DNA of 20,000 nt from an uncultured virus (IMG/VR IMGVR_UViG_2645728113_000006) (Duplodnaviria > Heunggongvirae > Uroviricota > Caudoviricetes). The DNA lies in IMG/VR virus record IMGVR_UViG_2645728113_000006; one strand, given 5' to 3'. Made by a program: the position numbers and the translations under genes. This document shows, in pieces, positions 1,802 through 13,500 of this stretch. The notes beneath the pieces are model-generated. The model worked only from the letters and a program-made list of their open reading frames with translations, had not been told where the DNA came from and ran no database searches. How positions within the stretch are numbered: the first letter of the stretch is position 1; every line of letters starts with the position of its first letter.

Positions 1802-2554
1802 ATGGCACTGATCACGGACATCCAGAAACTGGAGCCCGGCGGCGAAATTCGCCTGTTCGAAATTGACGGGACCGAATACGGCGCGGATTACTTGCGTTTC
1901 CACGGTCACGCCATCCCGCACACGCCGGAGGAACTGCTGGCCTACGAGCATTCGGAAGAGGATCTTCCGGCCAAGTCGATTTGGTGGCAGGGCGAGGAGT
2001 ACGCGGCCTGGCCGGTACAGATTGAGGGTATTTCCTCGAGCAGCGACGGCACCGCCTCTCGGCCGACATTCGCCGCTGGGAACATCAATGGTCGCGTCAC
2101 GGCGTTGTGCCTCGCCTTCGAAGACATGCTGAAGTTCAAGCTGACGGTTCGCGAGACTCTGGCGCAGTACCTGGACGCGGCCAACTACCCCGAGGGCAAC
2201 CCGGCTGCTGACCCGACCCAGGAGGCGCTTGAGATCTGGTACATCGACCAGAAAACCAGCGAGGACGGTGAGGCGGTGGTCTGGGAGTTGTCTTCCCCGG
2301 GCGAGATCGACAACCACGGTCTGCCTGGCAGGCAGATGACGACGTTTTGCCACTGGGCAATGACCAATGGCTACCGGGGGCCGGATTGCGGCTACACCGG
2401 TGCGGCCATGTTCGATGATGAGGACAACCCCACGGACGATCCCGCCAAGGATCAGTGCAAGGGCTGCCTCTCGTCCTGCAAGTTGCGCTTCGGCGAGAAC
2501 AACGAACTGTCTTTCGGCGGATTCCCCGCCGTATCCCTTATTGCCCGGAGCTGA
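1802..2554 (+). CDS. Phage minor tail protein, lambda gpL-like
   Basis: 250 aa; IWWQGEEYAAWP motif and C-terminal Cys cluster (CHW...C.Y.G...DQC..CLSSC..RFG...FGGFP); synteny. Confidence 0.93.
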   Translation: MALITDIQKLEPGGEIRLFEIDGTEYGADYLRFHGHAIPHTPEELLAYEHSEEDLPAKSIWWQGEEYAAWPVQIEGISSSSDGTASRPTFAAGNINGRVTALCLAFEDMLKFKLTVRETLAQYLDAANYPEGNPAADPTQEALEIWYIDQKTSEDGEAVVWELSSPGEIDNHGLPGRQMTTFCHWAMTNGYRGPDCGYTGAAMFDDEDNPTDDPAKDQCKGCLSSCKLRFGENNELSFGGFPAVSLIARS

Positions 2555-3312: not shown

Positions 3313-3385
3313 GTTGTATGCCTGAACAGTATCGACTCGTCACGACAATCTACTTATCCTAGATTATTTGATACGAGATCAAATC

Positions 3386-4192
3386 ATGTTGCCCGAGCCA
3401 AGGCTGGCGCTAAACGAACTACTCAAGGAGCGAACCCTGCTCTGGCATAAGATTGCTGAAAATCATTATGTTGACGAGTTTGAGGTTCGGCGACTTTTTA
3501 ATAAGCTTGATCGGCTGATAACAGATCCCGGTGCCGAGTTCAGTATTGCACCAGCCGCTTTGCATGAGCAGGCATATCTTTACGCTTACCAAATGAAAAC
3601 CTCTAACGCCCTGCGGTTGTTTGAAGATGCTCGCCGTGCGGGACTTGATGGGCTTGCCGTATCAATTTCTACGGCCCATGCTTTATATATTTGTGGCGAG
3701 GTCGAAATGTCCAGGGAAGAGATATTGCGTACTGACTATTCTGATGCGAATAACAGGGGGCTGTCAGGGCTGGCTGATACCTGCGTTCATACTGGCTTGC
3801 TGAAAATGGCCAGGGATCTTTACATTCGGTCTGGAAAACAGGGTGGCGAAGTAAGCACTCAAGTTTTGCGTGCGGCCGAAATAATGGACCAGATTGGCGC
3901 GACGGATGAACAAGTAATGCGCAGGATCGCGACGGCTGCAAAAATTATCAAGTCTATGTCTGCGCATCCGTTCATTGCATTTGACCTGTTCGCTATGCAG
4001 GGCGAGGGAATCCTCTACCGCTTCGTAGTGAATGGGAGTACTGAAAGGCTGGTCGAGATTGATATGGCAATTGATGAGGCATTAATCGCTGATTTCGATG
4101 AGGAAATTGATGACGTATTGTCGATTGGGATTGCGCCTTATGAGTTCGGTTCGAATATGTTAGCTGCGGATGGTTATTATGTCGGTGTGTAG
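3386..4192 (+). CDS. Hypothetical moron protein, helical/TPR-like N-terminus; possible partner of the downstream HEPN protein
   Basis: Long ORF (ATG 3386, alternative TTG 3368) with lower GC than the tail genes; overlaps the next gene by 14 nt. No family recognised with confidence. Confidence 0.65.
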   Translation: MLPEPRLALNELLKERTLLWHKIAENHYVDEFEVRRLFNKLDRLITDPGAEFSIAPAALHEQAYLYAYQMKTSNALRLFEDARRAGLDGLAVSISTAHALYICGEVEMSREEILRTDYSDANNRGLSGLADTCVHTGLLKMARDLYIRSGKQGGEVSTQVLRAAEIMDQIGATDEQVMRRIATAAKIIKSMSAHPFIAFDLFAMQGEGILYRFVVNGSTERLVEIDMAIDEALIADFDEEIDDVLSIGIAPYEFGSNMLAADGYYVGV

Positions 4193-4556
4193 TGATGATC
4201 TGTTGTTGTTAGCCGAGTCACTTATTGGAAGTAAGGATGAGGTTGGCAATCGTGCGAGCATAAGCAGAAGTTATTATGCACTGTACCATGAGGCTACAAT
4301 AGCCGCATCGGCGCTCTCTTTAAAAAGCAATCCAGATGTAAAAACAAGTCACGATAAATTAATTTCGCGCTTTACCGGTGCGACTAAAGGTCTTGCCTCA
4401 ATTGGGCGCGGCATTCTCAAGCAAAAGCGATTGCGTGCAATGGCTGACTATGAGATCGGCTCAGATCTCAATGCGTCCGAGGCGAGGTTCCATTTGGCTA
4501 CAAGCAAGCGGCTTGTAAGTGACTTGCGAAGGATCGCTGATCCTGCGAACTCTTAA
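4179..4556 (+). CDS. HEPN-domain protein (putative toxin/RNase)
   Basis: 125 aa from ATG 4179. RASISRSYYALYH and R..ADYE motifs are typical of small HEPN proteins. Confidence 0.75.
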   Translation: MSVCSDDLLLLAESLIGSKDEVGNRASISRSYYALYHEATIAASALSLKSNPDVKTSHDKLISRFTGATKGLASIGRGILKQKRLRAMADYEIGSDLNASEARFHLATSKRLVSDLRRIADPANS

Positions 4557-4815
4557 GATCTTTGCTGGATCAGGTCTTGAACAGAGTTTTCCTGTTATCC
4601 GCCACCCTGCTACAGTCCCGCCAAACCAAAGAGGGAACGACATGCGGATTTTTGCTGTGATGTGCGAGGACCATTGATGTGATGCTGTGTTAGAGCGCAA
4701 GAGACTTTGGCAGTTTTATATGGAAGAGCGAGAAATCGCGAGTAGCTCCTATTGATTGCTGGCGCTGATCATGGCCGAATGATAGCTTTCAACCGTATTA
4801 ATTTTTTTCCACGGA

Positions 4816-5691
4816 GTGGATGTGCCAGCCCTTATTCCCCAATTGGTCAATGCTGCACTCGATCCTCATACATCGGTTGCCAGCTTGCTAAGGCATGCGC
4901 TAGTAGCGGCAAATAGGCTTAGTCTCGTTGACCTGGCCGATTGGATGAGTTCGGAACTCAATGGCTACAAAACCGCTTCACTGCCGGAGTATAGAAAGCT
5001 CCGTGGCACTCTCATTTGTGAGCACGAATTTGGGGGGTGGATGCCTTTAGAGGTCACGCATGCGGCAACCCTTAATATGGTGTCTCAGCGACCGTTCTAT
5101 CAGTCCATCCCGGAATTAGAGCGATTAACTAGCAGCGGCGGGCCTTTCGTCGTTTTTTTTCCTCCAAAGAATGAAGTTTACTTACGCTCATTAATGAGGC
5201 CACCGACTAGGCCGGCAGTGGAAATACAGGCGAGCCAGATATTTGGCCTAATAGAGCTAGTTCGTAGCAGAATATTACAGTGGGCACTAGACCTTGAGTC
5301 CAAAGGGGTTATGGGTGAAGGTATGTCGTTTACATTGCAGGAGCGTCAGATCGTGGCTGCACAGCACTACCATTTTGGCGATGTTACTGGATCTCAAATT
5401 CAAATTGGCTCGAGTGGGTCGAATCAGTCCATCGCACCCGGTGACAGCACGGGAGCAATGAATGCGTTAATCAACCTGCTTCGTGATGTTCTAGCTCGGA
5501 ACGAGATTGATGGCGATGTGGCTGCCGAGTTGGTTGCCGAGCTCAAGACTCTGGAAGCTCAAGCCGAATCACCACGGCCTAAGGCATCAATTATCAGAGA
5601 AACCGCGCTGAGTATTCAGAGGGTCTTAGAGGGGGTTGCCGGTAACGTATTAGCGACCGCCGCTCCATTGATTTATTCGCTGGTGAGTTGA
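4816..5691 (+). CDS. AbiTii-domain protein (putative abortive-infection effector)
   Basis: N-terminus ALDPHTSVASLLRHALVAANRL...W...ELNGY...LPEYRKLRG resembles the AbiTii domain as I recall it. GTG start after GGA; terminator follows. Confidence 0.75.
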   Translation: MDVPALIPQLVNAALDPHTSVASLLRHALVAANRLSLVDLADWMSSELNGYKTASLPEYRKLRGTLICEHEFGGWMPLEVTHAATLNMVSQRPFYQSIPELERLTSSGGPFVVFFPPKNEVYLRSLMRPPTRPAVEIQASQIFGLIELVRSRILQWALDLESKGVMGEGMSFTLQERQIVAAQHYHFGDVTGSQIQIGSSGSNQSIAPGDSTGAMNALINLLRDVLARNEIDGDVAAELVAELKTLEAQAESPRPKASIIRETALSIQRVLEGVAGNVLATAAPLIYSLVS

Positions 5692-5695
5692 TGCC

Positions 5696-5720
5696 AGCCC
5701 AGTCCCGCGCTGGGCTTTTT
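5696..5720 (+). terminator. Rho-independent terminator
   Basis: AGCCCAG-tcccgcg-CTGGGCT-TTTT between convergent genes. Confidence 0.8.
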
Positions 5721-5723
5721 GCT

Positions 5724-6272
5724 TTAAACATTCCGAGGAGTTCGCCGATCCTTGAGTACGGAATCTAGGTCTCGTGCTAATTGGTCGGCGAGAATTCCGA
5801 GGATTGTCCATATGGCCATTGAGCGGGTGCGGATGACAATCGCATGCGTCTCCTCATCCTCTCCTTCGGGCTCATAAGGCGTGAAATTCTTCTGATACAC
5901 GGCGAACCCGATCGGCTCGCTGATTTTGAAGAATTTTGCTAGCAGAGGCTGCAAGCGCACTGGTTCGTTTCGATGTCCTACCGCGTTGCGAAGGTTATTT
6001 AGCGCCTTAATCGAATCCCATAGTTCAGGCTCCATAGCTGAACCCACGATTGCCCTGCAGAGCTCCGTAGCAGTGCCGAAAGTAAAAATATCGTTTCGGC
6101 TATAAGGGCGAGAGTATTGGGCTACCCCAGCGGCTATCAGATCATGCAATTGCTCCTCGACAATCATGTGGCCGCGTAGCACTGCCGACAGCAGTTCACT
6201 GTCCCGTTCGAAGGTGCGATGAAACTGCGCGGTCTTCTTCTCGATGTCCTTTGCGAAAAGTTCTCTTTTCAT
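5724..6272 (-). CDS. HEPN-like (MtlR/DUF4145-type fold) protein with an Rx4H motif
   Basis: 182 aa; VLRGHMIVEEQL...LNNLRNAVGH contains R-x4-H preceded by the usual helix pattern. Confidence 0.6.
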   Translation of the reverse strand: MKRELFAKDIEKKTAQFHRTFERDSELLSAVLRGHMIVEEQLHDLIAAGVAQYSRPYSRNDIFTFGTATELCRAIVGSAMEPELWDSIKALNNLRNAVGHRNEPVRLQPLLAKFFKISEPIGFAVYQKNFTPYEPEGEDEETHAIVIRTRSMAIWTILGILADQLARDLDSVLKDRRTPRNV

Positions 6273-6365
6273 AGTCTTCTTTGCTTGGGTAGCTTCACAA
6301 CTAGCCCGGCGGGCCGGGCTTGGTGATTCGATTTAGTTATGGTGATCACCACCATTATCGGGTCT

Positions 6366-6851
6366 TCATTGCGGCATCGGTGGCCAGCTTTTGGACTCTT
6401 CGACTACGTTGGCGATTACTTCTTCGATGGTTGTCTTTTCGCCGCGAGCCTCGGCATGAAAAAGATCAATTATTGCGTTGAGCATTATTTCCTGTGTGAC
6501 GCCATGCTTCGCTGCTTCGCCTTGTAGATTTTCGATGGTGCTTTTCGGTAACGCTAGGACTAGGTCTTTCTTGCCCTCAGCGACTAGCGCCATTTCTAAA
6601 ACCTCGGGCTGGTCATCAACATCCTGCAGTTTTTCCACTTCACAACCGAGTGCTTTAGAGAGCTTGACTAATGCGGTCATGCGAGGAACCGAGGTGCCCA
6701 TCTCATACCGTCCTATTTGAGGAACGCTTAAGCCACTCGCCTTCGCAAGATCGCGCTGTGTCATTCCCGCGTCTGCGCGGAGGCGGACGAGCCGGGAAGG
6801 GAAGCCTTTCGGGTGGTACATGCTGATTCCATACTGTGGTGTGGAAAACAT
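6366..6851 (-). CDS. XRE-family HTH transcriptional regulator with a possible C-terminal ribbon-helix-helix-like segment
   Basis: RLVRLRADAGMTQRDLAKASGLSVPQIGRYEMG is a classic XRE HTH. Divergent from the arc/antirepressor genes. True start could be the internal Met (MYHPKG). Confidence 0.85.
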   Translation of the reverse strand: MFSTPQYGISMYHPKGFPSRLVRLRADAGMTQRDLAKASGLSVPQIGRYEMGTSVPRMTALVKLSKALGCEVEKLQDVDDQPEVLEMALVAEGKKDLVLALPKSTIENLQGEAAKHGVTQEIMLNAIIDLFHAEARGEKTTIEEVIANVVEESKSWPPMPQ

Positions 6852-7191: not shown

Positions 7192-8055
7192 ATGAGCGAT
7201 ATTAGCACAACCGTTTCGAATGTCATCCCGTTCAATTTCGGCAAGCAGCAGGTGCGTACGCTGCTGATTGATGATCAGCCGTGGTTCGTGGCTAACGATG
7301 TTTCTGCTGCGCTTCAGTACAGCGAAGCGTCGGCGATGACTCGGCATTTGGACGACGATGAAAAGGGTCTGTCGATTGTGCAGACCCTTGGCGGCGATCA
7401 GGAAATGCTGGTCATCAACGAGTCAGGCCTTTACTCGGCAATCCTGCGCAGCCGTAAGGCTGAAGCCAAACGCTTTAAGAAGTGGGTCACCGCTGAAGTC
7501 CTCCCGGCGATTCGCAAGCAGGGCAGCTACCAAGATTCCAGCAATAAAATGAAGGCGCTGATGGATGATCTGGTCGACATGACCGAGACGAATGCACTGA
7601 AGGGCTTGGCGCGCCACAAGGTGGCACATCTTCCAGCCTCCATTCAGCGCAGTGCTTCCGCTCGTATTTATTCGGCAGTGCACACACGTTTCAACGTGCC
7701 GCGTCTTGAGCTTATCCCTGCAAGCCAGTTCGAGTCGGCGTGCAACTTCATCGCGGCCTACGCCGTTCTTGAGGGAGAGTTCATTCCGAAGGGGAACGGC
7801 AAGCCATTCGACATCCCGGAGAAGCTTGGCCAGTGTGAGCGCTATCTCGTCAGCGCAGATCCTCACGGCAATCGGCAGGTCACGCCGGTGCCAATGGGGG
7901 CGTTCGTCCTGACTCGGCAGCAGTTCATGCAGTCAATGCTTGTTGATCGAGATATGCCAGTTTCCACAGCGGAGATGTTCGAGTTTGTAGCGCTGGCGAC
8001 CGAAAACCTGCGCTACCGCTTTCTGTTCCAGGCTGCCCGGAGGGACGCAGCATGA
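7192..8055 (+). CDS. BRO-N domain phage antirepressor
   Basis: FNFGKQQVRTLLIDDQPWFVANDV...INESGLYSAILRSRKAEAKRFKKWVTAEVLPAIRKQG is BRO-N; followed by a P22 Ant C-terminal-like region (VHTRFNVPRLELIPASQF). ATG 7192 follows AGGAAG. Confidence 0.9.
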   Translation: MSDISTTVSNVIPFNFGKQQVRTLLIDDQPWFVANDVSAALQYSEASAMTRHLDDDEKGLSIVQTLGGDQEMLVINESGLYSAILRSRKAEAKRFKKWVTAEVLPAIRKQGSYQDSSNKMKALMDDLVDMTETNALKGLARHKVAHLPASIQRSASARIYSAVHTRFNVPRLELIPASQFESACNFIAAYAVLEGEFIPKGNGKPFDIPEKLGQCERYLVSADPHGNRQVTPVPMGAFVLTRQQFMQSMLVDRDMPVSTAEMFEFVALATENLRYRFLFQAARRDAA

Positions 8056-8627
8056 GCATGGAACTTGTCACACTAAAAATTACCGGCACGTCACCGCTGA
8101 TGATGCACAGCGACAAGCTGGCCAACCCTTTGAATCCAGCAACAAAGGCTCACAAGGAATTGACCGGTAAGCGCAAGAAGACGGACGACGATCATCTTGC
8201 CATTGCTCGCTCTGAGTTTATCGCTGGTGCCTACCACGATGAAAAGCTTGGCTTTTTTGTGCCAGGTGCGAATTTCGATGCGACGTTCTTGGCTGGCGCG
8301 AAGCTCCAAAAGCTGGGCACTCAATGGAAGCGCGGAGCGGTTGTGATGACTGACAAGGCGAAGCTTGAGTTCTCTGGCCCGACAACGCCTGACTCTCTTT
8401 GGGAGGATCAGCGGTTCGTTGACTGCCGCGGAGTAAAAGTTGGTCAAGCCAAGATCATGCGATACCGCCCGATCTTTCTTGAGTGGGCCGTGGAGCTGGA
8501 AGTTGCAATCAACGCTGACGTACTCAACATCGAGGAAGCAAAAAAAGCGATCACTGATTCTGGCCTGTTGATTGGGGTCTGTGAATACAGACCGCGCTTC
8601 GGTCGCTTCGAGGTGGAATATGTCTGA
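8052..8627 (+). CDS. Stand-alone Cas7/RAMP-like RNA-binding protein (candidate Vipr-type effector)
   Basis: 191 aa with RAMP hallmarks recognised by eye: N-terminal strand LKITGTSPLMMH, FFVPGANF (cf. IPGSS.KG), RYRPIFLEWAVELEV, and a C-terminal Gly-rich loop GLLIGVCEYRPRFGRFEV. ATGA-coupled to the antirepressor and upstream of a structured RNA array. Confidence 0.75.
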   Translation: MSMELVTLKITGTSPLMMHSDKLANPLNPATKAHKELTGKRKKTDDDHLAIARSEFIAGAYHDEKLGFFVPGANFDATFLAGAKLQKLGTQWKRGAVVMTDKAKLEFSGPTTPDSLWEDQRFVDCRGVKVGQAKIMRYRPIFLEWAVELEVAINADVLNIEEAKKAITDSGLLIGVCEYRPRFGRFEVEYV

Positions 8628-9078
8628 GTTGACAAAGCACCCGAGCTATAAGCAAGCCGTTGAAGACTTCCTCAAGGAGTTCAAATACGGTGATTTGGTC
8701 GGACATGAATGGCTGGAGGCTCGTTTCGGCATGCCGTCAATGACCGATTCGAAGTCGCTGACTGTTGAGAAGTTTCGTGAGCGTCAGTTCGAGTGGCTGG
8801 CGAACGTCGAGGCATTCAAGTCGGACTTGCTCAAACATCATCAAGTCTGCCTTCAGTCAGTGCGCGGGCGTGGTTATCGATGGGTGCCGCCTCATGAGCA
8901 GACAGAAGTTGCGGTAACTGAGTTGGGCCGGAATGTCAGGAAGGCGTTTCGCGGGAGTGGAGAAAAGCTGAGAAATTTGAGGATTACGGAGCTTACCGAT
9001 GATCAGCGACGGGCAAACCTTGACGCTGTTGCAAAGTTTTCCGCGCTCCAGGGCATGACTCGAAAGGCTCTTGGTTAA
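8620..9078 (+). CDS. Hypothetical protein, accessory gene between the RAMP-like gene and the RNA array
   Basis: 152 aa from ATG 8620 (MSELTKHPSY), 8-nt overlap with the RAMP gene. LQSVRGRGYRWV resembles a winged-helix wing. Stop codon lies inside the first array repeat. Confidence 0.75.
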   Translation: MSELTKHPSYKQAVEDFLKEFKYGDLVGHEWLEARFGMPSMTDSKSLTVEKFRERQFEWLANVEAFKSDLLKHHQVCLQSVRGRGYRWVPPHEQTEVAVTELGRNVRKAFRGSGEKLRNLRITELTDDQRRANLDAVAKFSALQGMTRKALG

Positions 9079-9130
9079 TAGCAGCGTAATATCCTTTCTA
9101 TGAGAGGGCATTGCGGTGCGAATGCATCAT

Positions 9131-9190
9131 GTGGCGTGGCGAGACAAGGTTGGGCGAGGTCTGGTTAGGTCGGGCATGTCTAGGTGAGGG
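9131..9190 (+). ncRNA. Putative guide tract 1 (12 NN-GGY pentamers)
   Basis: GT-GGC GT-GGC GA-GAC AA-GGT TG-GGC GA-GGT CT-GGT TA-GGT CG-GGC AT-GTC TA-GGT GA-GGG; exact 5-nt register. Confidence 0.8.
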
Positions 9191-9245
9191 CTGACAACAG
9201 CGTAATGCCGATTGGAATCAGTCGGCATTGCGGTGGCAGAAGCCG

Positions 9246-9310
9246 CTGGCAGGTTCTGGTCCGGCAAGTCGCGGCTAGGCCCGGCGGGGTGTGATTTGAT
9301 TTGGTATGGG
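9246..9310 (+). ncRNA. Putative guide tract 2 (13 NN-GGY pentamers)
   Basis: CT-GGC AG-GTT CT-GGT CC-GGC AA-GTC GC-GGC TA-GGC CC-GGC GG-GGT GT-GAT TT-GAT TT-GGT AT-GGG; exact 5-nt register. Confidence 0.8.
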
Positions 9311-9375
9311 CTGATAACAGCGTAATGTCTCTTCTTGGAGGAGGCATTGCAGTTTTAGAAGGTTTCGATTGACAT

Positions 9376-9898: not shown

Positions 9899-10498
9899 AT
9901 GTCAGCACTCGCAATTAATTATCAGCCGATGACTACCATCTTGCTTTATGGGCAGCTTAGGCAATTTGGAAGATCTTTCAGGTTGTCAGTTAAGTCCCCA
10001 GCCGAGGCTATCAAGGCGCTATGCGTACAGATCCCTGGCTTCGAGCGGTTCCTGTCGAACGCCAAGTCTCGCGGCATTGAGTTTGCCGTGTTTCGAGGGT
10101 CAAAAAATCTTGCAGAAAAAGAATTAGGATTTGGCGGTTCCGGAGAAATCCGTATAGCGCCTGTAATTACGGGCCGAAAGCGCGCAGGCCTGATGCAGAC
10201 CATTTTGGGCGCCATATTGATTGTGGTAGGTTTTTTTGCTTTCGGGTCGACAACAACTACAGGCGCAGCGCTCATAGCGGGCGGTATCGGTAGTGCTGCT
10301 GGGGGCGTAATCCAAATGCTTAGTCCGCAGGCGGCAGGCCTCAAGATGAGCGCTGCGCCCGAAAACCAGCCTGGATATGCATTTGGCTCGGCGCAGAACA
10401 CAACTGCATCCGGCAACCCGGTCCCGCTCTGCTACGGCAAGCGCAGGGTCGGCGGGGCGATTATTAGCGCCGCGATATACGCCGAAGACCAGATGTAG
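9899..10498 (+). CDS. Tail assembly protein, lambda gpI-like
   Basis: ATG 9899 after GGAGA. LYGQLRQFG...SPAEAIKALC ubiquitin-like N-terminus, a hydrophobic Gly-rich segment, and YAFG...GNPVPLCYG. Confidence 0.92.
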   Translation: MSALAINYQPMTTILLYGQLRQFGRSFRLSVKSPAEAIKALCVQIPGFERFLSNAKSRGIEFAVFRGSKNLAEKELGFGGSGEIRIAPVITGRKRAGLMQTILGAILIVVGFFAFGSTTTTGAALIAGGIGSAAGGVIQMLSPQAAGLKMSAAPENQPGYAFGSAQNTTASGNPVPLCYGKRRVGGAIISAAIYAEDQM

Positions 10499-10557: not shown

Positions 10558-13500
10558 ATGGGCGCAGCACAAAAGATCGATATACACGGCGCCAAAGGCG
10601 GCGAAGGTAAACCAAAAACGCCGACTGAGGCCCCGGACAGTCTGCGCTCTGTTGCTATCGCAAAAATGCTCATTGCCGTGGGCGAGGGTGAGTTCGAGGG
10701 CACGCCAACTGCCAAAGACATCTATCTCGACAACACGCCCCTGCAAGACCCTCAAGGCAACATAAATTTCCCGAACGTGAAGTGGGAGTGGCGCACCGGT
10801 GCCGTGGACCAGAGCTATATCCAGGGCATCCCTTCGGTCGAGAACGAGACCACGATCAGTACCGAGCTGCGCAGCGGGACACCGTGGGTACGGGCCATCA
10901 GCAATACCCAGCTTTCCGCTGTTCGCGTCCGTTTTGCGTGGCCTGTGCTTCAGTCCGTGGACTCTGGTGGCAACGTCAATGGCTACCGGATTGAATACAA
11001 GGTTGAGCTGGCCACCGATGGCGGCGCCTATCAGCAGGTGCTGAGCGAGGCTGTCGACGGCAAGACCACCAGCCTGTACGAGCGCACGCGCCGTATCAAT
11101 TTGCCGAAGGCCACTTCTGGTTGGCTGATGCGGATCACTCGCCTGACCGCGAATCAGAACAACAACAAAATCTCCGACACGATGCAAATTGCCGGCTTCA
11201 CCGAGGTGATCGACGCGAAGATCCGCTACCCGAATACTGCGCTGCTTTACATCGAGTTCTCGGCCGAGCAGTTCCGCAGCATTCCTGCCGTTACCGTCGA
11301 GACCAAACTGAAGAAGATGCAGGTGCCGAGCAACTACGACCCAGTGTCGCGCACCTACTCGGGCGTCTGGGATGGCACGTTTAAGCAGGCTTGGACCGAC
11401 AACGCGGTCTGGATGACCTACGACATCAGTACCGCCGACCGCTTCGGCCTGGGTCGCCGCATCAAGCCGTGGATGGTTGATATTTGGGAGTTGTATCGTA
11501 TTTCCCAATACTGCGACCAGTTGGTGCCGGACGGGAAGGGGGGCCTGGAACCGCGCTTCATCTGCAACTTGAACCTGCAGAGCAAAGCCGATGCCTGGTC
11601 ACTGCTGCGTGACATATCGGCGATCTACCGAGGCATGACCTACTGGGCCCAGGGCCAGGTCTTCACCCTGTCGGATATGCCGCGTGCCACTGACTTCGAC
11701 TTCGCCTATACCAGGGCCAACGTCCTTGACGGTAAGTTCACCTACTCCAGCGCGTCGGAGCGTACCCGGTACACCCGGGCGCTGATCAGCTACGACAACC
11801 CGCTGAACAACTACGACACCGATGTCACTGCTGTGACCGATGCAAAGCTCCAGCGGCGCTATGGTGACAATCCGCTGGAGATCAGCGCAATTGGTTGTAC
11901 CCGCGAGTCCGAGGCCCAGCGCCGCGGCAAGTGGGCGCTGCTGACCAACTCCAAGGATCGGGCGGTTACCTTCAAGGTCGGCCTCGACGGTCGCATCCCG
12001 CTTCCTGGTTACGTGATCCCCATTGCTGACGAACTGCTTGCAGGTCGGCCGGTGGGTGGCCGTATCTCGGCGGTGAACGGAAAGGTCATCACCCTGGACC
12101 GTGACACCCAGGCCAAGCCCGGCGACCGGTTGATCCTCAACTTGCCAGACGGCAAGTGCGAGGGGCGCACGGTGCAACTGGTCAGTGGCCGACAGGTCAC
12201 CGTAACCCTGGCCTACTCCGTACCACCGGAGCGTGAACTAGTGTGGGCGCTGGACGCCGACGATCTGGCGATCCCGCTTTACCGGGTGGTCAGCGTGGCG
12301 CGGCCAGAGCCCGGCGTATTTGAAATCTCAGCCGTGCAGTACGACCCCAGCAAGTTCGATCACATCGACACCGGCGCCCGGTTGGAAGAGCGGCCTATCA
12401 GCGTTGTACCGATCACCGTAGTTCCTGCCCCGACGAGCGTCGACATCACGTCGAACTACTCCGTGGACCAGGGCCTGGCAATCAGCACCATGAATATCTC
12501 GTGGCCTGCTGTGGCTGGCGCAGTGGCTTATGACGTGGAGTGGCGCAAGGACAGCGGAAACTGGATCAAGCTGCAGCGCACCGGCTCTACCAGCGTTGAC
12601 GTCACCGGCATTTACTCGGGCGCATATCTCGCCCGTGTTCGGTCGGTGAGCGCGTTCGAGATTTCGTCCATTTGGAAGAGCTCCAATCTGACCAACCTGG
12701 AAGGGAAGGTCGGCCTCCCGCCGGCCGTGGCGTTCCTGTCCACCACTAGCGAGCTGTTCGGCATTGGCATTCGCTGGGGTTTCCCGGCTGACGCCGAGGA
12801 TACCCAGCGCACCGAGCTCTGGTATGGACAGGCTAATGATCTGTCGGTGGCGACCAAACTCGCAGACTTGGCGCACCCCCAAGCGAATTACAGCATGCAG
12901 GCCCTAAAGGCCGGCGCGCAGTTCTTCTTCTGGGCTCGCCTGGTCGACCGTACCGGTAACGTTGGCCCGTTCTATCCCGTCGGTAACGGCGTGATGGGGA
13001 TGGCAAGTGCCGATGCGGCGCCGGTGCTGGATTTGATCGCCGGGCAGATTGGGCGTACGGAGCTGGGCAAGGACATCACGGACGAGATCGACAAGATCCC
13101 AGGGCTGCAGGCGCAGATCGACGCGCTCGATGGGTTGTCCGCCTACGACCCGGAGTCGACCTACCTTGAGTTTGACCTAGTGGTGGTTGGTAAGCGGATC
13201 TACCAGGCCACCGGCCCGGTACCCGTCGATACGCCACCACCGAATGCCAACTACTGGCAGGACGTGGGTCAGGCGGTGGTCACTGCCAATGGCCTTGCGC
13301 GTCAAGTTGAGATCAATACCACCAGCATCACCGAACTGGACGGGGTGGTCACGGCTCAGGCGTCAAGTCTTCAGGCGTTGCAATCGGCTTATCGGGACGA
13401 CACGGGGGAGGGGGATCTGGTTGATGCACTCCAGGGCTACAACGCCTCGGCGAGTTTCGCGCAGGAAGTGAAGACGCAGGCCACGAAGAACGCAGCCATG

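What the first reader, a model, noticed from the sequence alone, without database searches (positions are those of the whole stretch)
9131..9190. Guide 1 decodes, as NN-x-NN-x, to a conserved motif of tail gene J
Dinucleotides: GT GT GA AA TG GA CT TA CG AT TA GA. Skipping one base after each, units 2-10 read as codon positions 1-2 of V-D/E-K/N-W/C-E/D-L-Y-R-I. Gene J at 11473-11508 reads ATG GTT GAT ATT TGG GAG TTG TAT CGT ATT TCC CAA (MVDIWELYRISQ). That is 19/24 read bases overall and 16/18 in the core, with the skipped base always on the wobble position. A rough hand binomial gives ~4e-8 per site, ~2e-3 over both strands of this window. From memory, lambda gpJ has VDKW at this place, so the guide fits the family consensus better than it fits this phage.
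Basis: partly seen in the sequence, partly recalled or inferred. Interest (0 to 1): 0.95.

Follow-up and report, generated by a model that had tools for sequence, protein, structure and literature searches.

The report
Phage guide RNA silencing rival tails
This prophage carries a known type of RNA-guided gene silencer whose guide spells a conserved stretch of the tail-tip gene of related phages, while its own copy of that stretch differs at the letters the guide reads, which suggests a weapon against kin paired with built-in self-protection.

Summary
Confirmed and extended. 9133-9187 is a guide (vrRNA) of a type II VIPR locus. The 191-aa gene upstream matches SUSP1 Vipr (E 1e-46), followed by a vap1 homologue and two GGY/NN guides. 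The nine-unit core, read NN-x, matches at least 120 viral contigs exactly; all 120 listed hits lie in gene J, same codon, in frame. Controls gave 0 and 1 hits. The match to the phage's own J alone is weak (about 0.5 expected per genome). Its two core mismatches are a rare Lys-to-Ile change and a first-position Leu switch (TTG). This patch occurs with the guide in 5 of 5 assessable IMG/VR hits and on four separate J lineages. None of 89 perfect-site records searched whole has Vipr. Guide 2 targets tail gene I antisense, also mismatched in self. The system and code are published. These targets and the linked resistance patch are not in the texts I read; their target tables were unavailable. This scan noted similar self-avoidance on other DNA. 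Nothing was tested at the bench.

The parts
8052..8627 (+). vipr gene (RAMP-like RNA-guided DNA-binding subunit, 191 aa)
   Evidence: phmmer to PDB 36pp_D SUSP1 Vipr E=1.3e-46 over residues 3-190; 42.5% identical to the SUSP1 gene; no Pfam hit
8620..9078 (+). vap1 homologue (152 aa), start overlaps the vipr stop
   Evidence: tblastn 22% identity, E=6e-4, to the gene directly after vipr in phage SUSP1; low-confidence all-helical model, pLDDT 56
9080..9114 (+). leading partial tail repeat (hairpin) that opens the array
   Evidence: aligns with tails 1 and 2
9115..9132 (+).
   Evidence: hairpin in the fold of the whole unit (z only -1.3 on its own); same motif before guide copies in relatives
9133..9187 (+). 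guide 1: 11 GGY/NN units; core 9133-9177 reads V-D-K-W-E-L-Y-R-I codons of gene J (sense)
9188..9231 (+). vrRNA 1 tail, two hairpins
   Evidence: -24.1 kcal/mol, z -6.3
9253..9307 (+). guide 2: 11 GGY/NN units; core 9253-9297 reads tail gene I antisense (NTPGYAFGS codons)
   Evidence: at least 120 IMG/VR stretches, 122 of 123 matches in frame in gene I
9308..9350 (+). vrRNA 2 tail, two hairpins
   Evidence: -22 kcal/mol, z -6.3
10364..10390 (+). own gene I site for guide 2, NQPGYAFGS, 14/18 read bases (Thr-to-Gln codon; Ser as TCG instead of AGY)
   Evidence: gene I = Lambda_tail_I PF06805
11476..11502 (+). own gene J site for guide 1, VDIWELYRI, 16/18 read bases (Ile codon 11482-11484 for Lys; TTG 11491-11493 for CTN); T at all 6 pyrimidine wobble positions
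   Evidence: J = PF24801, PF13550, PF09327

Best explanation
This is a type II VIPR cassette in the tail region of a lambda-like Pseudomonas prophage, aimed at kin. Steps known from other VIPR systems (papers): Vipr coats the GGY repeats, the NN pairs read double-stranded DNA skipping every third base, and the bound filament represses transcription. Shown here by sequence: guide 1 spells the conserved VDKWELYRI codons of tail-tip gene J, and guide 2 spells the NTPGYAFGS codons of tail gene I on the other strand, both skipping the wobble base. Both sites are common in related prophages. Inferred: the cassette blocks tail-gene transcription of co-resident or superinfecting relatives. The carrier spares itself because its own sites differ at read positions. 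In J it uses the two routes around a wobble-skipping guide: an amino-acid change (Lys to Ile) and a first-position synonymous change (CTN to TTG). This short patch stays linked to the guide, 2.3 kb upstream, across otherwise different J lineages.
For: Vipr and vap1 homology. At least 120 perfect 18/18 sites, 120 of 120 in J in frame; controls 0 and 1. Genus sample of 400 other genomes, hand tally of 104 non-self rows: 83 perfect, 17 Met, 3 TTG only, 1 Ile+TTG (one perfect and one Met row come from unpublished genomes G241 and G189). The one Ile genome, G166, carries the cassette and the guide core; the three TTG-only genomes do not. The Ile variant has only 6 hits in IMG/VR; 5 of 5 with enough upstream DNA carry the guide, one of them identical to the window. 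In metagenomes 2 of 36 hits are in J and both carry the guide; one repeats an IMG/VR record. Vipr in 0 of 89 perfect-site records searched whole, positive control found. No guide carrier has a perfect own site. L126, with Vipr 98% identical but another guide, has the perfect J site. Ile rows need 4 changes on the tree of J flanks, and one clade is rejected, p-AU 5e-5. The guide core is kept across Vipr lineages 77-84% identical while the last two units vary.
Against: No expression or binding data; no usable RNA run. The self match is still 18/22 (82%), above the 80% cut-off the discovery paper uses to call a natural target, and I found no mismatch-tolerance data in the passages read, so immunity is unproven. 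Carriers are few: about 4 independent Ile lineages plus 2 distant J types. The two tail-proximal units are poorly matched although cryo-EM shows engagement starting at the tail end. Mismatched J sites also occur without the guide: the Lys-to-Arg variant has 107 hits, only 7 of 67 assessable with Vipr and none with the guide. The recoded gene I site is also found in L126 and L164, which lack guide 2, and that site varies widely in the family (18 of 63 perfect). This assembly holds no second J, so no resident target is present now. Trees of recombining phage genes are unreliable.
Confidence: 0.75

Rival explanations
1. Targeting of rival J genes is real, but the own mismatches are not adaptive immunity. 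The cassette persists only where J already happened to differ, or the patch hitchhikes with the cassette by recombination.
For: L132 and L161 carry the guide beside distant J types (45-46% identical) with many natural mismatches. The cassette and J are 2.3 kb apart in mosaic genomes. Other variants of the site are common without the guide.
Against: The identical patch is only about 30 bp: the window and L124 share 30/30 bases at the site but 26-28/30 in adjacent bins, like non-carriers, so it is not a long co-transferred block. The Ile variant was not found in any assessable record without the guide.
Confidence: 0.13
2. The guide also or mainly binds its own J (82% match) and damps tail-gene expression. 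The T-rich site is a mutational scar of that binding (cytosine deamination on the displaced strand).
For: The own site is the most T3-rich of 1179 nine-codon windows in J (6 of 6 pyrimidine wobble positions, against 0.23 in the flanks; canonical sites reach at most 3), and CTG-to-TTG is also C-to-T. The coding strand is the non-target strand for guide 1. dCas9 R-loops cause such deamination in yeast (PMC6411842, abstract seen).
Against: The guide keeps the rival consensus (AA, CT) in all close carriers rather than the own sequence. The gene I site shows no matching G-to-A trend and is not AT3-rich for its gene (5 of 9 against 0.43). The Lys-to-Ile change is not a deamination. L161 shows no T excess.
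Confidence: 0.09
3. The J match is chance, and the real target lies elsewhere.
For: A 19/24 match is expected about 0.5 times per genome; units 10-11 never match fully among the 120 hits, best 21/24.
Against: 120 of 120 perfect core hits fall on one codon of one gene family, controls are empty, guide variants in distant carriers track alternative codons of the same site, and guide 2 hits the neighbouring tail gene.
Confidence: 0.03

Closest known systems
Type II VIPR systems of phage SUSP1 and a Pseudomonas fulva prophage (bioRxiv 10.64898/2026.04.26.720920; all six parts of the held text read; supplement PDF searched by terms)
   Same: vipr-vap1 pair followed by an array of about 115-nt units with GGY/NN repeats and a structured 3' tail; 1-nt skip on the wobble position; targets on either strand; targets in prophages of the host genus.
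   Different: Reported targets are mainly a satellite and lysis-lysogeny regulators. Here both guides hit conserved tail genes that the carrier itself needs. The paper found no self hit at 80% or more; here self is 82% on 11 units. The G-loop has Glu where SUSP1 and P. fulva have Asp, and residue spacing differs from the P. fulva numbering, so this is probably not the paper's P. fulva clade (inferred). Data S3 and the picture of Fig. S15 could not be seen and may list tail targets.
SUSP1 VIPR versus F5 satellites and solo vrRNAs (bioRxiv 10.64898/2026.10.15.759431; parts 1 and 3 of 8 and term passages read)
   Same: Wobble-aligned guides on conserved codons; lower self-match than non-self match, reported for guides that target other phages' vrRNAs.
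   Different: That paper argues that targets cannot easily escape. Here the carrier's own J differs at codon positions 1-2 by one amino-acid change and one first-position synonymous change. 'recod' occurs 0 times in its main text; its supplementary tables are closed.
VIPR cryo-EM structures (bioRxiv 10.64898/2026.04.26.720927; parts 1-2 of 6 and term passages read)
   Same: Residues named there align with H19, K35, R41, K84, R139 and R180 here.
   Different: D177/W178 are E178/Y179 here; no structure of this clade was found in the PDB copy.

Membership tests
VIPR | Vipr RAMP-like protein of about 20 kDa with G-loop | tested here: met
   E=1.3e-46 to SUSP1 Vipr, full length; G-loop GVCEYRPRFGRF
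VIPR | vrRNA genes of 9-16 GGY/NN pentamers beside vipr | tested here: met
   two runs of 11 units; the only period-5 GGY runs above 4 of 10 in the window
VIPR | conserved structured 3' tail | tested here: met
   repeated tail, two hairpins, z about -6.3; pseudoknot not tested
VIPR | 1-nt skip rule with wobble-aligned coding targets | tested here: met
   120 of 120 and 122 of 123 in-frame hits; other gaps or order give 0-1
VIPR type II | vap1 accessory gene after vipr | tested here: met
   22% identity, E=6e-4, to the gene after SUSP1 vipr, same synteny; weak but full-length
VIPR type II | placement in the type II clade of the Vipr tree | not tested
   no reference alignment of the seven types at hand
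VIPR | vrRNA expressed, processed and bound by Vipr; transcriptional repression of the target | not testable with these tools
   no raw-read RNA run holds the locus; the four runs laid were DNA contigs
VIPR | no self target at 80% NN match or more (as reported) | tested here: inconclusive
   79% on 12 units, 82% on 11 units, 89% on the core; depends on where the guide is cut
P. fulva VIPR clade (over 90% identity) | near identity to P. fulva Vipr | tested here: inconclusive
   sequence not available; residue spacing and G-loop Glu differ from the paper's numbering

The most novel reading that the evidence does not exclude
VIPR here works as a kin-discrimination weapon with a matching immunity allele. 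A guide against an essential, conserved stretch of the phage's own gene family is paired with a roughly 30-bp recoded patch in the linked copy of that gene. Guide and patch are kept or moved together across J lineages, like a toxin-immunity pair written in codons. The natural patch shows that two mismatches at read positions defeat a wobble-skipping guide, and its T-rich skipped positions may be a selected feature or a scar of past self-binding.
Probability: 0.6. Interest if true: 0.72.

Novelty: new member of a known kind. Interest (0 to 1): 0.58.

Why it matters
VIPR was described in 2026, and its wobble-skipping code is proposed to make targets hard to escape. This locus offers matched natural alleles: a guide, over a hundred perfect rival sites and a rare linked self allele. 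They make three open points testable in a simple reporter: how many and which mismatches abolish silencing, how a carrier avoids silencing itself, and whether skipped bases matter. It also adds essential tail genes of close relatives as a target class in Pseudomonas prophages.

Tried and rejected
Reversed-order guide and gaps 0, 2 and 4 in the window: best 14-17 of 24, chance level; gap 3 finds only the guide itself. Search for an upstream vrRNA: no period-5 GGY run above 4 of 10 elsewhere in the window. A second J or Vipr in the assembly: none. Guide 2 with its flanking units (11 units, up to 2 mismatches) in 401 genomes: 1 hit, not followed up; the outer units do not match the gene I site, so this pattern was too long. 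The Lys-to-Arg J variant as a VIPR-linked escape allele: rejected, mostly Vipr-free. Deamination scar at the gene I site: not supported. Sequencing runs: only contigs, no expression evidence; whether run X4's prophage has the patch could not be read because 329 rows were not shown. Vap1 fold: single-sequence model too weak for a fold search; Atlas hits were all unnamed. Promoter scan at chance level. Of the 120 perfect-site records, 89 were searched whole for Vipr and 31 only in the held flanks (0 hits; 69 of 120 had at least 3.5 kb upstream). Three Vipr-positive loci found by another route (L126, L162, L165) do have perfect J sites, and lack the guide. The tree used 56 of 128 distinct J flanks, those over 80% identical to the window downstream of the site. 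Literature searches: VIPR; R-loop mutagenesis; none listed a paper on this locus.

Full report
Setting. The window is the tail region of a lambda-like prophage (tape measure, L, K, I, J, lysis genes; names partly from Pfam, partly recalled from gene order). Close relatives lie in Pseudomonas records. Between tail genes K and I sits a block of extra genes that ends in a BRO-N gene, a 191-aa gene (8052-8627), a 152-aa gene (8620-9078) and a 280-bp array.

Observation. It is the best such match in the window and in the assembly. Permutation gives 5 of 5000 in the window, but 0.58 such matches are expected per genome. The self match is a lead, not a proof. The first unit belongs to the leader, so the guide is 11 units and the self match 18/22.

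What it is. The 191-aa protein matches SUSP1 Vipr at E=1.3e-46. The next gene matches the gene after vipr in SUSP1 (22%, E=6e-4). The array has a leading hairpin and two units of leader, 11 GGY/NN pentamers and a two-hairpin tail. The system and the code are therefore known.

Target of guide 1. All 120 lie in J homologues, same strand, in frame, at the codon aligned to V307. One shuffled order gave 0 and a 2-nt gap 1 hit. On 29 J loci the true order scores 18/18 and 2000 permutations at most 15. In 400 other genomes of the genus a relaxed pattern gave 104 rows: by hand count 83 perfect, 17 with Met for Leu, 3 with TTG only and 1 with Ile plus TTG. The reversed control pattern gave 1 hit. Two rows come from unpublished genomes (G241, G189), and only the 29 fetched loci were checked further. 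The target is thus common among kin. Units 10-11 never match fully (best 21/24) and vary among guide copies, while the core is kept with single-unit changes in Vipr lineages 77-84% identical (L132, L161, L164).

Target of guide 2. 122 of 123 matches lie in frame in tail gene I on the opposite strand, spelling NTPGYAFGS. The own site scores 14/18.

Self-avoidance. No guide-1 carrier has a perfect own J site: 16, 16 and 15 of 18 in close carriers; 14 in L132 against its own guide and 13 in L161 against the window's core. The Ile variant is rare. It has six IMG/VR hits, all also with TTG; five with enough upstream DNA carry the guide (one is identical to the window), and the sixth has only 153 bp upstream. 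In metagenomes 2 of 36 hits are in J and both carry the guide; one duplicates an IMG/VR record. The one Ile genome in the genus sample carries cassette and guide; the three TTG-only genomes do not. Vipr was found in 0 of 89 perfect-site records searched whole, 29 of them at least 90% complete. L126, with a 98% identical Vipr and a different guide, has the perfect site. On a tree of J flanks without the site, the six Ile rows need four changes and one clade is rejected (p-AU 5e-5). The window and L124 are identical over the 30 bases of the site but no closer than non-carriers next to it. Other relatives' guides hit further tail-region genes (minor tail L and tape measure by likeness to the window's ORFs, and gene I), with own best matches of 12-15 of 18; the panel was limited to tail regions.

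Against. The position tolerates other changes without any guide: Lys-to-Arg has 107 hits, 7 of 67 assessable with Vipr, none with the guide. The recoded gene I site also occurs in two relatives without guide 2, and only 18 of 63 family sites are perfect, so it is weaker evidence. At 82% the own J site passes the paper's target cut-off, and I found no mismatch data in the passages read. Cryo-EM shows engagement from the tail end, where both guides match worst. Independent carriers are few, and nothing shows expression.

Unexplained. The own J site has T at all six pyrimidine wobble positions, the unique maximum among 1179 windows of the gene; canonical sites reach at most three. These bases should not be read. 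Selection on skipped bases, an AT-rich donor, or deamination of the displaced strand (as for dCas9, PMC6411842, abstract only) could explain it. The gene I site does not back the last idea.

Novelty. A new member of type II VIPR. Tail genes J and I as targets and a linked resistance patch do not appear in the texts read or in searches. Data S3, the Fig. S15 picture and the closed bioRxiv tables may bear on this. Lower self-match is already reported for vrRNA-targeting guides. Two unchecked notes of this scan describe self-avoidance beside VIPR guides on other DNA; I had written my reading before seeing them.

Noticed in passing
window 1802-2554, 130-1452, 9899-10498; loci L162-L165, L203: Guides of related VIPR loci hit other tail-region motifs (DQKTNEDGE, WQGNEYGAW, MEDAIVNFA, GSKRAGLLQ); the window's own genes carry variants of these motifs (DQKTSEDGE, WQGEEYAAW, MEDSLVNFA, GRKRAGLMQ).
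   Followed up: partly
window 3368-6851: Low-GC block of extra genes inside the tail operon, including an AbiTii-domain gene (4816-5691, E=2e-36) and an HTH_3 regulator (6366-6851, minus strand): possible defence island next to the VIPR cassette.
   Followed up: no
L144-L159: Vipr-positive prophages with unusually long guides (up to 29 units by my parser) and a VDRWEMYRI J site without a J guide.
   Followed up: partly
L126 and L164, gene I: Recoded gene I site (Gln, Ser TCN) without guide 2; may be a relic of an earlier guide.
   Followed up: partly
G000 C34:100239 (+): Best genome match of guide 2 with its outer units, 20/24, in a hairpin followed by a T run; probably chance.
   Followed up: no
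G000 contigs C3, C5, C6: The same sequences recur on three contigs of about 300 kb, so the assembly looks partly duplicated.
   Followed up: no
window 9872, 10531, 15134, 17112: Repeated terminator-plus-ribosome-site motif before tail genes I and J, the tail fibre gene and the lysin gene; ordinary for such phages.
   Followed up: no
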